Source: Podarcis pityusensis (Eukaryota). From it: 64,000 bases of DNA. A program made the position numbers. Positions 2,871 through 14,800 of this stretch are shown in pieces (positions within the stretch are counted from its first letter, which is position 1; each line of letters begins with the position of its first letter). The stretch is taken from NCBI GenBank assembly GCA_964106645.2, contig OZ067047.1. The stretch is one strand, 5' to 3'.

Positions 2871-5800
2871 CCTCGGGTTACATATGCTTCAGGTTACATA
2901 CACTTCAGGTTACAAACTCTGCTAACCAAGAAATATTACCTCGGGTTAAGAACTTTGCTTCAAGATGAGAACAAAAATCGTGTTCCGGCAGCACAGTGGC
3001 AGCAGGAGGCCCCATTAGCTAAAGTGGTGCTTCAGGTTAAGAACGGTTTCAGGTTAAGAACGGACCTCCGGAACGAATTAAGTACTTAACCCAAGGTACC
3101 ACTGTAGGTTCCTTCAGTCTTGTAAGATTTGGTGAAATGGCAGCTGGTCTCTGGGGAACAAACTGGCTTTCCTCCTCAAGGCTTAAAGACCTCAAATCCA
3201 GCTTACTGCTGCCAGGTCAGATTTTGAGTGAAGAAGGGGAAAACATGCACACATACATTCAATATTATTGGGAGAACTCCAGGATGCCACAGCAAAGCCT
3301 CAAGAGATGAAGAAGCAACCATCCCAGGAACACGCAGCCCTCTGCCTACTAGCCTGGAGTTGCCTAGAGTTTACCTTGAGTGAAGCTCTGGAATCCTTGA
3401 CCACCATCCCTGCAGAGGAAGCTGGTGTAAAGAAATTTCCTAGAGATGCTGGAAATGGGACCATTGTTCAAGGCAACCTTTCAGGTACTCTGAAACGTCT
3501 TGTGTTTAAGTGTGTGTTTGTGTCCTCAGATCTTCAGCCAAAAGTCACATCTTGTGTGTCTAATACACACAACTTGCTATCGAAAGGGTATTCTTCCTAC
3601 CATCGCTCAAGGGGCTCATTACTAGGTCACTCATTACTTGCCCCTTAGCATCCCGGTTTAACCACTCGGTCATATTAACTGCTGCAAAAACCACAACGTT
3701 AACTCTTAAGCGTCACCGAGGATCAAAGCTATGGATTTTTTTCTCACAGACTCAATGCACACATATAAATGGTATGAAGAATTTAACCTACTTTAGTGCA
3801 TATAAATGTTGAGGGATGTGGTGGCAATTATTCTGTGCTAGTAAATGTCAAGTACAAGTGTGTTGTTTTGTAAGCATGGTGCAAATTCACCAGGAAGCAC
3901 ACTATGGCATCTTCAACTAAGATCTTGATCCACATATGTTCTAGATGTTCTTTGAATTTCCTTCTCTTTTTTGAGCAAAAATATTTCTTTTATACTGTGC
4001 ATCATTACATCTTCTTCCCTCCTGGGGGTGGGGATATTGGTAGTTTGATAAACCTTTTGGGAGGAGCAGAGCTGGTACCAAGGGGATAACATTATCTTAG
4101 GAGGAAAACTTAGGATTCGTGATTTTAGTTGCTTTCTCTGTAAGGCAATTGCAGGGAAAGGGGGCACTTAGTGGGGAATTGGTGAACAGGTCCCTCTGTC
4201 TCCCTTGCACTATACATAGTATGTTTATTTATTAAAAAACTGTTTATTGAAGTGTTTTTAGAGGATTTTTAAAGATCAGCAAAGTATAACAGAACGGCAT
4301 AAAAACTATAAAGGAGTAGGCATGAATATGTTGTCCACATTAGAATGAAATCAATGCACAATGTAGAAACATGTCCAGTCCAAAATTGATGAGAGGTGTA
4401 TATTTATATTGATGAATTGTTGTTAATGAATGCAATGAATGGAAACCATTACATGTTAAAGATACCTGATTTAGAGAAGCCATTGATCACACGGTCCTGG
4501 TACTTCACTTATGCCACTGGAGAACAGCCCTAAACCCTATTGAATCCTGCTGTCTCCAGTGTTGCAGTTAATGTTATGAGGTATGTCTGGTTGAAAAGGC
4601 TTGTGATTGGGAGACAAATTATCTGTATTATTTTGTTAATATTGTATGCCTGAGTCCATCAGACTGCTCTACCACAAGCTTTGAGGTCCAAGCTTTCTCC
4701 AACTCCAAAGTGAAGGAAGTTTATGCTGTGAGCCTCCCTGGGATCTATGAGAATGGGGCAGTAAACAAATTTAACAAACAAACAAGCCTTAGAAGTGGCA
4801 GGTGCTTCTGGTGCACTAATTTTAATGTGGACTGAGATGAACTCTAGGCAAATTTACCTTCATGGCATATCTTTGCCAAATTTTCTTCTGGTCATCTTCA
4901 GAGATATGGCTGTCTCTTTCCCAAACTAACCATGACCTCTCAGTAGAGACAAACAAGTAGCCTAGCAAAAGGATGTCAGTTTGAGAAACTAAGCATTTAG
5001 CCTTAGGTGAGCTGTTTACCACTACATTTTCAAAGCCAGCCAGTTCCATTGTTTTAGACTGCAATCCTACACACACATAACTGGGAGCAAATTCTATTGA
5101 ACTTAGTGGGACTTACTTCTGAGGGAGTACTGACACAGGGAACTGTGTTGTCCCAGTTACACTGGATGCCAAATCTGTACTTACTGCTTAGTTTCCAGCC
5201 TGAAGGAATTTGCTAACCCTCTTATGAGCGCTGAACCATACTTACCCTCAAGAGGCAGCAAGTACAATAATGAAAAACCAGCATTTTCCTGGGAACACTT
5301 CAGACCTTACCATGTGCCCTGATTTCCTTCCCTTGCTTTAAAATGTGGCGTATGGAGAGAAGAGATGGAATACACAAATGCAATACATCTGGCTTTGCTT
5401 ATCATAGTATGGACAGTTTGCACAGCTGTACAATACAAAACACCCACTTTTTTCAGGGAGTACCCTTCTTTCATACATACAGTTCAACATGAGAAGCACC
5501 AAGTTATAAGAGCCACTTTCCTTAGTCTGATTCAAAAACCTATCTAACCCAGCATAAAGTTTACCAGAGCAGCCAATCAGATACAGTGGTACCTCAGGTT
5601 ACATACGCTTCAGGTTACATACGCTTCAGGTTACAGACTCCGCTAACCCAGAAATAGTGCTTCAGGTTAAGAACTTTGCTTCAGGATAAGAACAGAAATT
5701 GTGCTCCGGCGGTGCGGCGGCAGGAGGAGGCCCCATTAGCTAAACCTGGTACCTCAGGTTAAGAACAGTTTCAGATTAAGAACGGACCTCCAGAACGAAT

Positions 5801-11800: not shown

Positions 11801-14800
11801 AAGAGGAGCATATTGGCTTAAACCTTCTATGACTGCTGAGGGCTCCTCAGTTATCATAACCCTCAAATTATATTGTAGAAGGCTACTTTTCTTGTAATTT
11901 CACCTATTCACTGTTCAGCTGTATTGCGAGGGACCTATTATACAGAAGGGTGCTCTCAGGATGATTTGAGAGTGCCTGGCACAATAGCCAGGAAATCTTA
12001 TGGGAACAGTGTTGATCCCTGTTTACCCACAGCACACAGACCAACAATATCAACAAATGGGGCACAGCTAAAGTTATACAGTATAAAATCAGTTAAATCA
12101 TGCTGAGCTCCCAATACTAAAAGCGCTTCTTATTTTGAGCTACATAGCTGGAAAAGCAGCTATCTGGGATATGGCATGGCTTGATCCTCTTCTCTGTATG
12201 TCTTAACCAAGGTTTTGAATATGTAGGAGGGATTCACCAGATGAGAGTAAGGGGATCCTTCCAGATGTTGTAGGACTCCAACTCCCACCAGCCACAGCTG
12301 GTACAGCCAAGGGCGAGGGATGATGAAAGGTGAAGTCGAACATCTGGAGGACCAAAGCACAGTGCTGAGAACACCAAGCTGGCAGGTTCGATTCTCATAT
12401 GGGACAGATGCATATTCCTGCATTGCAGGACTAGATGATACGCAGGGTCCCTTCCAACTCTACGATTCTATGATCCGCACAGCAGGTGATTCAAATGTCC
12501 TCCTAAGCAGCAAATGACACTTTCACAGACTGGGGAGGGTGAAATTCATAATGTCACAAAAGCATGATCATTATGTTCCAGTGGCCCTTTAGTCGTAGAA
12601 CATTTTGTTCAGAGTGATTTTGATTACTGCCCAACGCCTCTCACCATCTCTTTTACTGTGTTCCATTTCTAATAGGAGCCAGGAGAATTTGCAGAAATGG
12701 GCACCGCAAAGCTTATGCTCCGAAATCCACATCTTCCCGCAGGTTGTTCTGAAGCCAGGAACTGCCCCATCTGCCTCGATGTTCGTTCATTTGCTTCAGA
12801 AACCAGGAGACGCCCCCTTGAACGTGAAACCTTGCCATCGCAATCTCCCCCAAGCCTTGCCTTCCGTTTATTACAGAAGATCTGAAGGACTGAACCCTTT
12901 GAATAAGACAGCACTTTGGAATCCGAGATAAATCGCTTTGTAATGAACCAACAGCAATGCACTCATGGAAGTTTGTGGGAACTGACTTCTTGCTCTTTTA
13001 TGGCATACATAGCCCATTTATGAAACCTGTCATTATAGGTCAGTTTATGTAAAATACAATAGAGAAAACATGTATAATCTGAAGCATGCAACCCTATGAT
13101 ATAGGCTGCTTGTTCAAAACTGAAACATACTACTAAAAATGTACCATCTACTCGGGTAACAGTGGGAGCTCTAAAAAGGAAAAGTGAGTTTTAACGTTTA
13201 TTTTATTTCAAGGCATAGGTTCATAGCCCTATTATTTAGTAAAGTGTTTCTTCTGTAGCCAGGGGGACAACTTGACAGAATAAAGCCACAACCTTTTATG
13301 TCATCTCTAGTCTTTTTCACTGAGGAAGTAGGAAACAGATCAAATGTTATTTCTCCACAGAATACATGACTAGATCTACAGAATTCCTACACAATCAAAG
13401 TGATTTATTGAGAAGTAATACCACGGGGCAGTATGCAACTAAATACTTCTCCTAGTGCAAGCACCTCTGGCTGGGCAATGGAAGTTCATCTTCTTCTCCT
13501 TCCCCTGTGTACCCCCTAAATATGTACAGTGGTACCTCGGAAGTCGAATGGAATCTGTTCTGGAACTCCGTTCGACTTCCAAAACATTCAGAAAACAAGG
13601 TGTTCGGAAAACATTGGCTCCTGCAGCCAATTGGAAGCTGCGTTGGACGTTTGGGTTCCAAAGAACGTTCGCAAACTGGAAGACTCACTTCCAGGTTTGT
13701 GGCATTCAGGAGCCAAAACAGTGAACTCGCAAGGCATTTGGGATCCAAGGTATGACTGTACTGGAGACCGGGTTTATGGGGTACACAATGGGCAATTCTG
13801 TTGCATAGTTAAAAGTGCTCGAACTATAGCTGCCCTGTTTAGCTTGATACCACTCGATGGTTTAGTAATACTGGTGACTGCAAGCCATATGACAAATACA
13901 AGATGTGTTCAAGTTCAGACATACTCATTCTTAGATTTGTCACCAGCAACAGGTAAGTGGCATTATTACGCCTCAGTTGCTAGTTTCTCTTGATATCTGG
14001 CTTGTCGTAGTCACTTACATTATGCTGGGATTATGTTGTCTCACCTGGTGCATACAAGTGAGCGTACTCCTAGGGATTCTGACAACATTGCTGCAGATAT
14101 GCATCAGCATCTGGGCTGCCCCACAGAACTGTCACCACCAAGGGAACTCTGAGACTGATTAGTACTTTATCTTCTGCCTTCCTCCTCCCCAAAATGAATA
14201 TAAAAACTGGGGCTCAAGGGTGCTACAAGGGAACTGCACACACCAAGATGCTGCCGAACCTTGTAATTCCATACTCCCATAAAATGGGGCGTCTCATTGA
14301 TTTCCTCTCCCCACCCTCAGCAAAACAACATAACAAGCCAAGTAAACCATAAAAAGAAACCAGGGAGGGGTGTCTACAAATTTGCACAAAACCAGATAGC
14401 TGTGTTGGTCTATTGGAGGCAAAACCAAAAGACACAGAAACTACCTTATTTAGGATCAACCAAAATATCAAACTCACAAGCAGTATTTCAAGTTCTCCAG
14501 ATCTCTTATTCAGGTGGGAATTTTAAATAAAAGGTGACAGGGTGGGGAGGAGAAAATGTAGGGCAAATTATTAAGGCCCAAAGTCATAAGATGGGGACAG
14601 GAAAAGATGCACAGACAGATTAGTTTCTGCTATATATTGATTCAGGCTGCACAAAGGACAACTGGGAAAAAGGGGTAGTAATGACTGTTGCGCAATGACA
14701 TTTCACTAAAAGCAGAAACGTAACTGGTATAAGAATTAGTGTGGTACCTTGCTACATCCTCAAGGAAAGTCCCTATTGAGATCATCTGCTAAAGAAGGGG

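What the first reader, a model, noticed from the sequence alone, without database searches (positions are those of the whole stretch)
3307..12931. Complete five-exon SUSD3-like single-sushi membrane protein gene beside CNOT4
Seen: five segments (3307-3484, 6152-6340, 6576-6732, 10500-10682, 12676-12931) with GT-AG borders and matching phases (1,1,2,2) join into one 320-aa ORF. It has a hydrophobic leader, NGT/NLS sequons, a CCP domain, a TM helix ending in CC (palmitoylation-like), a very basic juxtamembrane tail and an NQGFQRSQENL segment. Established: human SUSD3 has a single-sushi plus TM layout but is on chromosome 9, whereas CNOT4 is on 7q33. Inference: this is a separate SUSD3 paralogue, possibly retained in reptiles and lost in mammals, with no known function.
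Basis: partly seen in the sequence, partly recalled or inferred. Interest (0 to 1): 0.75.

Follow-up and report, generated by a model that had tools for sequence, protein, structure and literature searches.

The report
Unstudied SUSD3-family sushi membrane gene
This is a real, intact five-exon lizard gene for a small cell-surface protein with one sushi domain, a relative of SUSD3 that databases already predict in reptiles, birds and fishes but that nobody has studied.

Summary
The five segments have GT/AG borders and phases 1,1,2,2, and read as 320 codons ending at TAA 12929-12931. Each exon matches RefSeq models from other lacertid lizards at 93-98% identity, and the Podarcis muralis model has the same five blocks. 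The window is therefore lizard, not human.

Exon 2 is a Pfam Sushi domain. Exon 3 carries a transmembrane helix ending in CC. Exon 4 has net charge +14. The neighbour on the minus strand is CNOT4, tail to tail.

A profile search gave 102 relatives: 48 sauropsid, 48 ray-finned fish, 6 unnamed, and no named mammal or amphibian. One face of the membrane helix and the tail motif N-x-G-x-Q-R-S-x-E are nearly invariant from fish to lizard.

The "separate SUSD3 paralogue" reading is only indirectly supported. Chicken SUSD3 lies on GGA12 beside PHF2 and FAM120A, while bird members of this family sit on contigs far larger than chromosome 12. No tetrapod SUSD3 sequence could be retrieved, so the decisive tree was not made. 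Loss in mammals is untested.

This is an ordinary, already annotated but uncharacterised gene. Interest is low to moderate.

The parts
3307..3484 (+). Coding exon 1. Holds the start codon ATG 3307, the leader peptide and a linker with two N-glycosylation sequons. It ends in phase 1.
   Evidence: Identity is 95% to Podarcis P0008 and 93% to Lacerta P0006 over 59 aa. The start matches the orthologue N-termini.
3334..3390 (+). Hydrophobic core of the presumed signal peptide (residues 10-28).
   Evidence: This is the best 19-residue Kyte-Doolittle window of exon 1, at 1.45. It is modelled as a helix in the AlphaFold2 model of the Podarcis orthologue, residues 25-49, which equal window residues 7-31. 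The pattern LCLL.WSCL is kept in at least 80% of 24 sauropsid rows. Cleavage is inferred, not shown.
3454..3462 (+). N-G-T sequon.
   Evidence: NGT is kept in at least 80% of the sauropsid rows.
3475..3483 (+). N-L-S sequon.
   Evidence: N.S is kept in at least 80% of the sauropsid rows.
6152..6340 (+). Coding exon 2, phase 1 to phase 1. It encodes one complete sushi/CCP domain with four cysteines and the conserved tryptophan.
   Evidence: Pfam PF00084 at E 4.3e-10, covering profile positions 1-56 of 56. The four Cys and the Trp are invariant in 48 sequences. Modelled as beta strands with pLDDT 78-91. Foldseek matches CD46, Crry and CR1 modules.
6576..6732 (+). Coding exon 3, phase 1 to phase 2. 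It encodes the short stalk, the transmembrane helix and the start of the cytoplasmic part.
   Evidence: Identity is 98% to Podarcis and Lacerta, 74-88% to alligator, turtle and emu, and 51-59% to fishes.
6608..6679 (+). Transmembrane helix (V-A-V-I-A-S ... F-A-V-C-C). The Cys-Cys pair at 6674-6679 sits at its cytoplasmic end.
   Evidence: Kyte-Doolittle 2.43. Helix with pLDDT about 90. A153, S157, S160, I164, F171 and C174 (Podarcis numbering) are invariant in 48 of 48 sequences. Conservation is periodic at 104 degrees, and 0 of 5000 shuffles reach the observed value. Palmitoylation of the CC pair is inferred.
10500..10682 (+). Coding exon 4, phase 2 to phase 2, 183 nt = 61 codons. It is a polybasic juxtamembrane segment plus the first half of the conserved tail motif. 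It is a frame-neutral cassette.
   Evidence: Net charge is +14. It is absent from Lacerta agilis isoform X2 (P0006), whose sequence runs straight from exon 3 to exon 5.
10666..10682 (+). First half of the conserved cytoplasmic motif (N-Q-G-F-Q and the first two bases of R).
   Evidence: N249, Q253 and R254 (Podarcis numbering) are at least 90% conserved over 48 sequences from fish to lizard.
12676..12691 (+). Second half of the conserved cytoplasmic motif (last base of R, then S-Q-E-N-L).
   Evidence: S255 and E257 are at least 90% conserved over 48 sequences.
12676..12931 (+). Coding exon 5. It encodes the C-terminal tail and the stop codon TAA at 12929-12931.
   Evidence: Identity is 98% to Podarcis and Lacerta over 84 aa. 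Modelled as disordered, pLDDT below 50.
3137..3310 (+). Three upstream ATGs (3137, 3245, 3284) in another frame. All end at TGA 3308-3310, which overlaps the main ATG (ATGA).
   Evidence: The Lacerta X2 model starts at the counterpart of ATG 3137. The Podarcis model starts at a Met that is ATA 3253-3255 here. It is unknown whether these ATGs lie in the transcript.
13279..13284 (+). First AATAAA on the + strand after the stop codon, a candidate polyadenylation signal.
   Evidence: It is a consensus match only, with no transcript evidence.
19742..56746 (-). Neighbouring gene CNOT4 (coding exons seen from the RING exon down to a C-terminal exon). It is convergent with the sushi gene.
   Evidence: ORFs. 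The RING exon 56447-56746 matches Pfam zf-RING_4 at E 5.4e-21 and PDB 1e4u_A 'transcriptional repressor NOT4' at E 2.7e-39. Naming the other exons as CNOT4 rests on my recall of that protein.

Best explanation
This is an intact, conserved protein-coding gene of a lacertid lizard. It is the orthologue of RefSeq LOC144328981 (Podarcis muralis) and LOC117053945 (Lacerta agilis).

It encodes a 320-residue type I membrane glycoprotein of the SUSD3 family. The parts in order are:
- a cleavable leader
- a short glycosylated linker
- one CCP/sushi domain
- an eight-residue stalk
- one transmembrane helix ending in a Cys-Cys pair
- a polybasic juxtamembrane cassette (exon 4, apparently skippable)
- a disordered tail carrying short conserved motifs

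The gene lineage is old. It is present throughout sauropsids and has close relatives in ray-finned fishes (zgc:162331, named 'SUSD3' there). In birds at least, it is a different locus from the SUSD3 that sits beside PHF2 and FAM120A.

Proposed mechanism (inferred, not shown): the protein works as a cell-surface adaptor or auxiliary subunit.
- The single CCP domain binds an extracellular or cis partner.
- The invariant small/polar face of the membrane helix packs against another membrane helix.
- The palmitoylated CC pair and the polybasic stretch hold the juxtamembrane region on the inner leaflet.
- The conserved tail motifs (N-x-G-F/Y-Q-R-S-x-E-N/S-L and the following F/Y-P-x-V-V-L) dock cytosolic factors.

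This would be analogous to what is reported for SUSD3 in cytoskeleton organisation and cell migration.
For: Gene model:
- Borders, phases and the open frame are confirmed.
- tblastn with the Podarcis protein gives five blocks on the five exons.
- Per-exon identity is 93-98% to lacertid RefSeq models, 53-87% to Anolis and Varanus, 41-88% to alligator and turtle, and 34-74% to birds.

Family:
- Exon 2 matches Pfam Sushi above the cut-off.
- The exon-2 database search returned 3 hits among 17 candidates, all lacertid.
- The search with the Podarcis protein returned 22 hits, all sauropsid, named 'uncharacterized' or 'SUSD3(-like)'.
- The profile search returned 102 hits: 48 sauropsid, 48 ray-finned fish, 6 unnamed.
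- The Atlas's nearest clusters are SUSD3-type, with scores 0.97-0.98.

Tree: 48 rows split into a fish side and a tetrapod side, each with SH-aLRT 99, and each follows the species tree.

Topology:
- The AlphaFold2 model of the orthologue has a leader helix, a beta-rich sushi domain (pLDDT 78-91), a long helix at 148-189 (pLDDT about 90) and a tail below 50.
- Hydropathy, charge and sequons agree.

Constraint:
- 20 columns are invariant and 31 are at least 90% conserved across 48 sequences. These include 13 tail residues.
- Conservation in the membrane helix is periodic. The peak is at 104 degrees, and 0 of 5000 shuffles reach the observed value.

Separate locus from SUSD3 in birds: the position of chicken SUSD3 against the contig sizes of the bird hits.

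SUSD3 function: I saw only the title of Moy et al. 2015 in the reference list of PMC11968365, and that paper's introduction.
Against: - No transcript or junction-read evidence was available. Expression rests on the existence of RefSeq and Ensembl models in related species, whose support I could not inspect.
- No tetrapod SUSD3 sequence was retrieved, so paralogy is not shown by a tree. It is not shown at all for lizards.
- The fish relatives are named SUSD3 by NCBI in many species. The sauropsid gene could therefore be the orthologue of the fish gene, with either it or mammalian SUSD3 being the relocated copy.
- The first half of exon 4 is not conserved with fishes. Their majority there is acidic, C-W-L-E-R-E-E-G.
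- The tail alone gave no usable Atlas hit.
- Every step of the mechanism is inferred: ligand, palmitoylation, helix packing and tail docking.
- Three out-of-frame upstream ATGs end on top of the start codon. If transcribed, they would lower translation.
Confidence: 0.8

Rival explanations
1. It is simply the SUSD3 orthologue of this lizard, moved next to CNOT4. There is no second SUSD3 in the genome.
For: The Varanus komodoensis, Limosa and Amia members are called 'SUSD3' by their sources. The fish relatives are named SUSD3 by NCBI in many species. None of my searches returned a second, distinct SUSD3 from any sauropsid.
Against: Chicken SUSD3 is reported on GGA12 at 7.08 Mb beside PHF2 and FAM120A. 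Those are neighbours of human SUSD3 at 9q22.31 (recalled). Bird members of the present family are named 'SUSD3-like' or 'uncharacterized' and lie on contigs of 197-226 Mb (10 of 27 with a length) or 70-80 Mb (7 passerines). So birds have two loci.
Confidence: 0.12
2. It is a membrane complement regulator of the RCA kind (like CD46, CD55 or Crry).
For: The sushi domain's best solved relatives are modules of CR1, CR2, DAF, CD46 and Crry (30-35% identity over about 65-70 residues).
Against: There is only one CCP module. By established knowledge, RCA proteins use three or four contiguous modules to bind C3b or C4b. The conserved transmembrane face and tail motifs have no counterpart in the PDB matches, which cover the sushi part only. 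The matches are what any CCP domain would give.
Confidence: 0.04
3. It is a decaying or non-functional locus, an ORF kept open by chance or an annotation artefact copied between genomes.
For: There is no expression evidence here. Out-of-frame upstream ATGs overlap the start codon. The models differ at the 5' end between species, and one isoform skips exon 4.
Against: The frame is intact and all four junctions are canonical. All five exons are conserved from lizards to birds. Residues in the membrane helix and tail are invariant between fishes and sauropsids. The tree follows the species tree with short branches.
Confidence: 0.03

Closest known systems
SUSD3 (sushi domain containing 3) of mammals and birds
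   Same: Both are small type I membrane proteins with a single sushi domain, one transmembrane helix and a cytoplasmic tail. Sources name many members of the present family 'SUSD3' or 'SUSD3-like'. The Atlas's nearest clusters are SUSD3-type.
   Different: The genomic place differs. This gene lies tail to tail with CNOT4. Chicken SUSD3 lies beside PHF2 and FAM120A on GGA12. No direct sequence comparison with a tetrapod SUSD3 could be made, because none was retrieved. The polybasic exon 4 (net charge +14) is specific to the tetrapod side of my tree.
zgc:162331 / 'sushi domain-containing protein 3' of ray-finned fishes
   Same: The architecture is the same. Identity to the Podarcis protein is 31-38% in the 48-row alignment. 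The same transmembrane face is invariant, and the same tail motifs are present: N-x-G-Y-Q-R-S-Q-E-x-L-L-K, Y-P-H-V-V-L-Q and Y-L-H-L. It forms the sister group in the tree.
   Different: The fish proteins have longer, threonine- and glutamate-rich N-terminal linkers. They have an acidic juxtamembrane segment where the lizard has the basic one, and P-T/S-A-P repeats in the tail. Whether the fish gene is the orthologue of this gene, of SUSD3, or of both is open.
Single CCP modules of the complement regulators and receptors (CR1, CR2, CD46, CD55, Crry)
   Same: The sushi fold and its consensus are shared.
   Different: This protein has one module instead of many. Nothing outside the module is shared.

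Membership tests
Sushi/CCP domain proteins (Pfam PF00084) | A domain of about 60 residues that matches the Pfam profile above the gathering score. | tested here: met
   The exon 2 piece scores E 4.3e-10 and 40.3 bits against a cut-off of 20.7, covering profile positions 1-56 of 56.
Sushi/CCP domain proteins (Pfam PF00084) | Four conserved cysteines and the conserved tryptophan. | tested here: met
   C80, C109, C123, C139 and W132 (Podarcis numbering) are invariant in 48 sequences. All are present in the window's exon 2.
Sushi/CCP domain proteins (Pfam PF00084) | A beta-sandwich fold like solved CCP modules. | tested here: met
   The AlphaFold2 model of the Podarcis orthologue has strands at 89-141 with pLDDT 78-91. 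Foldseek matches CD46, Crry and CR1 at E 3e-4 to 1e-3 with probability 1.00. The model is of the orthologue, not of the window's joined protein.
SUSD3 family (single-sushi type I membrane proteins) | Leader peptide, one sushi domain, one transmembrane helix and a cytoplasmic tail. | tested here: met
   This is a prediction only, with no experimental topology.
SUSD3 family (single-sushi type I membrane proteins) | Significant full-length similarity to proteins annotated as SUSD3. | tested here: met
   The profile search hits include many fish proteins named 'sushi domain-containing protein 3' at E 1e-92 to 1e-110. These names come from automatic annotation.
SUSD3 orthologue proper (the gene at human 9q22.31 / chicken GGA12) | Conserved neighbourhood with PHF2, FAM120A, NINJ1 and FGD3. 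| tested here: not met
   The only neighbour in the 64 kb window is CNOT4. Chicken SUSD3 lies by PHF2 and FAM120A. The window shows only about 3.3 kb upstream of the gene.
SUSD3 orthologue proper (the gene at human 9q22.31 / chicken GGA12) | Groups with tetrapod SUSD3 in a gene tree, with no second copy in the same genome. | not tested
   No tetrapod SUSD3 sequence was returned. The look-up of cluster members was unavailable. No vertebrate genome collection is on hand.
RCA-type complement regulators | Several contiguous CCP modules forming the C3b/C4b-binding site. | tested here: not met
   There is one Sushi match only, in exon 2. The other four exon pieces have none.

The most novel reading that the evidence does not exclude
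This gene and SUSD3 are a pair of ancient duplicates from the two vertebrate genome duplications. As recalled, human PHF2 at 9q22.31 and its paralogue KDM7A at 7q34 mark the same pair of regions as SUSD3 and the CNOT4 neighbourhood. The CNOT4-side copy survived in sauropsids (and possibly as the fish gene) but was lost in mammals. Its invariant membrane-helix face and its N-x-G-x-Q-R-S-x-E tail motif would then define a conserved, undescribed adaptor module that mammals lack or have remodelled.
Probability: 0.3. Interest if true: 0.45.

Novelty: new member of a known kind. Interest (0 to 1): 0.27.

Why it matters
The finding adds little that is new. The gene is already predicted in RefSeq for dozens of sauropsids and fishes.

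What is worth recording is that an unstudied relative of SUSD3 is conserved across sauropsids and ray-finned fishes. One face of its membrane helix is invariant, and a short cytoplasmic motif is nearly so. That points to a fixed membrane partner and a fixed cytosolic partner.

If it proves to be a duplicate that mammals lost, it would be a modest example of lineage-specific loss of a cell-surface adaptor. It could also help to read the function of SUSD3, which is used as a cancer marker but is poorly understood mechanistically.

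Tried and rejected
Only exon 2 went to the large protein database. All five pieces went to Pfam and to a local blastp against the retrieved proteins. The wide searches used the database protein P0008 of Podarcis muralis or alignments of database proteins.
Some were named. P0068, P0065, P0089, P0091, P0114 and P0149 stayed unnamed, and I did not try to trace them.
- P0068 is a long branch on the tetrapod side of the tree. I draw no conclusion from it.
- True SUSD3: it was not among the 22 hits, the 150 listed of 1655, or the 102.
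- Pfam on exons 1, 3, 4 and 5: there was nothing above cut-off. Two sub-threshold hits on the membrane-helix exon (YkpC, BAMBI_C) are hydrophobic-stretch noise.
- Tail alone in the Atlas: no usable hit.
- PDB by profile: sushi modules only.
- Self-association of the sushi-plus-helix part (residues 78-200 of P0008, two copies): complex prediction gave no verdict. The score was 0.02 against a mark of 0.32, the controls were not run and my alignment was not used. This is neither for nor against.
- Literature: 216 papers hold 'SUSD3' or its full name, and the 20 listed are cancer or association studies. 'zgc 162331', 'SUSD3-like', 'SUSD3L' and the full '-like' name gave 2 incidental papers. 'SUSD3' plus 'lizard' gave 0. 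Moy et al. 2015 is not held.
- Chicken CNOT4 position: the one passage found lists CNOT4 with WDR91 and other genes, without a chromosome in the text shown. I do not use it.
- P-T/S-A-P, Y-x-x-hydrophobic and L/P-P-x-Y-like motifs are seen in fish or bird tails. They are not kept in the lizard sequence, so I do not build the mechanism on them.

Full report
**Observation.**
- Their lengths are 178, 189, 157, 183 and 256 nt. Each intron starts with GT and ends with AG after a pyrimidine-rich tract.
- I translated each exon in its own frame and read the four split codons by eye: G|CT = Ala, G|TG = Val, GG|G = Gly and AG|G = Arg. The phases are therefore 1,1,2,2. The product has 59+1+62+1+51+1+60+1+84 = 320 residues, ending at TAA 12929-12931.
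- ATG 3307 is the first in-frame ATG after the in-frame stop TGA 3229-3231.
The spliced model was checked exon by exon, and the joined step was left out.

**Is it real, and whose genome is it?**
- The sushi exon alone, sent to the protein database, returned 3 hits among 17 candidates, all from lacertid lizards. They are Lacerta agilis LOC117053945 isoform X2 (97%), Podarcis muralis LOC144328981 (95%) and a partial Podarcis UniProt entry.
- tblastn of the 338-residue Podarcis protein against the window gives five blocks that coincide with the five exons.
- Exon by exon, identity is 95, 95, 98, 97 and 98% to Podarcis. It is 93, 97, 98, no match and 98% to the Lacerta isoform, which lacks exon 4.
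- The window is therefore a lacertid lizard, not human. It has no N.
- The Podarcis model starts 18 codons further upstream, at a Met that is ATA (3253-3255) in this window. The Lacerta model starts at the counterpart of ATG 3137, which here is in another frame. The Anolis, Varanus, alligator, turtle and bird proteins all begin at the counterpart of ATG 3307.

**Family and distribution.**
- Exon 2 is a complete Pfam Sushi domain (E 4.3e-10, 40.3 bits, cut-off 20.7). The other four exons match no family above cut-off.
- With the Podarcis database protein as query I found 22 relatives, all sauropsid. They include Anolis, Varanus, Pogona, geckos, a skink, alligator, turtles, palaeognath and neognath birds. 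Identity is 46-76%, and they are named 'uncharacterized protein LOC...' or 'sushi domain-containing protein 3(-like)'.
- An exhaustive phmmer search gave 1655 hits at E ≤ 0.001. The 150 listed are multi-sushi giants plus small single-sushi proteins.
- A profile of 15 small ones retrieved 102 proteins at E ≤ 1e-5 among 8000 scored candidates:
  - 48 sauropsid (29 birds, 13 squamates, 5 turtles, 1 crocodilian)
  - 48 ray-finned fish (bichirs, sturgeon, gar, bowfin and teleosts), called 'zgc:162331' or 'sushi domain-containing protein 3'
  - 6 unnamed
  - no named mammal, amphibian, lobe-finned fish or shark
- A quick maximum-likelihood tree of 48 rows splits into a fish side and a tetrapod side, each with SH-aLRT 99. 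Each side follows the species tree. One unnamed representative, P0068, is a long branch on the tetrapod side, and I draw nothing from it.

- No search returned a tetrapod SUSD3. The tool that would have named the unlisted representatives was unavailable. No vertebrate genome collection is on hand.
- The indirect evidence comes from birds.
  - A main-text table of a chicken GWAS paper places an intronic SUSD3 SNP at GGA12:7,080,551. PHF2 is at 6.71-6.76 Mb and FAM120A at 6.83 Mb (passages read, not the whole paper). As I recall, those genes flank human SUSD3 at 9q22.31.
  - Bird members of the present family are named '-like' or 'uncharacterized'. Of the 27 that list a contig length, 10 lie on contigs of 197-226 Mb and 7 passerine ones on 70-80 Mb. 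That is far larger than chromosome 12, which is about 20 Mb (recalled).
  - Birds thus have two loci.
- For lizards this is an extrapolation.
- NCBI names the fish gene SUSD3 in many species. It is therefore open which tetrapod copy it corresponds to.
- A two-round-duplication origin is plausible, because PHF2 (9q22.31) and its paralogue KDM7A (7q34) mark the same two regions. That rests on recall alone.
- 'Lost in mammals' rests on 0 named mammals among 102 hits of a search that also missed true SUSD3. It is weak.

**Anatomy.**
- Exon 1 holds a leader with a hydrophobic core (residues 10-28, Kyte-Doolittle 1.45) and then a linker with NGT and NLS sequons. Both sequons are kept in at least 80% of 24 sauropsid rows.
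- Exon 2 holds the CCP domain. Its four Cys and its Trp are invariant in 48 sequences.
- Exon 3 holds an eight-residue stalk, a membrane helix (Kyte-Doolittle 2.43) ending in Cys-Cys, and then Q-D-R.
- Exon 4 has 15 K/R against 1 D/E, net +14. It is 61 codons long, so skipping it keeps the frame, as in the Lacerta X2 model.
- Exon 5 holds the rest of the tail.
- An AlphaFold2 model of the Podarcis protein, with the 48-row alignment, has mean pLDDT 60.9. It shows a leader helix, sushi strands at pLDDT 78-91, one long helix at 148-189 at about 90, and a tail below 50. Foldseek finds only CCP modules of CD46, Crry, CR1 and the like. The sequence profile against the PDB does the same.

**What is under constraint.**
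- Across the 48 rows there are 20 invariant columns and 31 more at 90% or above.
- Six of the invariant columns lie in the membrane helix: A153, S157, S160, I164, F171 and C174 in Podarcis numbering. G161, S168 and C175 are nearly invariant.
- Their spacing puts them on one helical face. The conservation moment peaks at 104 degrees per residue, and 0 of 5000 shuffles reach the observed value at 100 degrees.
- In the otherwise disordered tail, 13 residues are conserved in at least 90% of rows: S237, G242, G246, N249, Q253, R254, S255, E257, K261, P275, L279, P285 and R321.
- The first half of exon 4 is not shared with fishes. Their majority there is acidic.

**How it most likely works.**
- Shown: it is an intact, conserved gene for a protein predicted to be a type I membrane glycoprotein with one CCP domain.
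- Inferred:
  - The CCP domain binds a protein partner outside the cell.
  - The invariant small/polar helix face packs against another membrane helix, so the protein is likely a subunit or adaptor of a membrane complex.
  - The CC pair is palmitoylated and, with the polybasic stretch, lies on the inner leaflet.
  - The tail motifs are docking sites.
  - Exon-4 skipping would remove the basic stretch and half of the main motif, giving a variant with different coupling.
- The nearest functional analogy is SUSD3. It is described as a cell-surface protein (introduction of PMC11968365) and linked by Moy et al. 2015 to cytoskeleton organisation and migration. I saw only that title in a reference list, and the paper itself is not held.

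**Surroundings.**
- CNOT4 lies on the minus strand, convergent with this gene. Its RING exon at 56447-56746 matches Pfam zf-RING_4 (E 5.4e-21) and the solved NOT4 RING 1e4u_A (E 2.7e-39). Further exons are visible as ORFs down to 19742-20110. Naming those as CNOT4 rests on recall.
- Only about 3.3 kb lie upstream of the sushi gene in the window, so its other neighbour is unseen.

**Verdict.**
- It is a SUSD3-family gene at a locus different from bird SUSD3.
- It is neither reptile-specific nor unannotated.
- Its paralogy to SUSD3 and its loss in mammals remain to be shown.
- I found nothing in print on it.

It is a new, unstudied member of a known kind.

Noticed in passing
window 3137-3310 (+): Three ATGs (3137, 3245, 3284) share a frame other than the main one. 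All stop at TGA 3308-3310, which overlaps the main start codon as ATGA. In Lacerta agilis the RefSeq X2 model reads from the counterpart of ATG 3137 straight into the main frame, so the two species differ by a frame shift here.
   Followed up: partly
window 10500-10682 (+): Exon 4 is exactly 61 codons long and is missing from Lacerta agilis isoform X2. It looks like a frame-neutral cassette exon. It holds the whole polybasic stretch and half of the conserved tail motif.
   Followed up: partly
window 42397-43574: A 235-nt inverted repeat (arms 42397-42631 and 43340-43574, 97% complementary) flanks a 708-nt segment. The long ORF 42636-43301 (+) in that segment matches the GIY-YIG nuclease domain (E 7.7e-06). 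It lies inside a CNOT4 intron and is probably a remnant of a Penelope-like retroelement; that name is from recall.
   Followed up: partly
window 41815-42057 (+): An ORF has a reverse-transcriptase-like stretch (F-A-D-D-T-K), suggesting a LINE fragment just upstream of the GIY-YIG element. It has no Pfam hit at E ≤ 0.01.
   Followed up: no
window 58400-59200: An 800-nt block has 60% G+C in a window of 40% G+C. It has long ORFs in several frames on both strands but a CpG observed/expected ratio of only 0.14, so it is not a CpG island. It lies upstream of the CNOT4 RING exon. Its nature is unknown.
   Followed up: partly
window 8450-8900: A second G+C-rich stretch (54% G+C, CpG observed/expected 0.40) has overlapping ORFs on both strands, rich in Gly and Pro. 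It lies inside intron 3 of the sushi gene.
   Followed up: no
window 2831-2914, 3031-3063, 5594-5635: A (GA)18 microsatellite and three short tandem arrays of related 16-17-nt units (T-C-A-G-G-T-T-A-C-A-T-A-C...) lie just upstream of and inside intron 1. They are possibly tails of a dispersed repeat.
   Followed up: no
whole window: CpG observed/expected is 0.12-0.29 in every 4-kb bin, including the regions upstream of both genes. No CpG-island promoter is visible for the sushi gene.
   Followed up: no
proteins P0065, P0091, P0104, P0174 and other fish relatives: The fish members carry repeated P-T-A-P and P-S-A-P motifs and a Y-L-H-L motif in the tail. The lizard has T-A-P-S-A-S and F-V-H-L there instead. 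These motifs would matter for sorting if functional, but they are not conserved into squamates.
   Followed up: no
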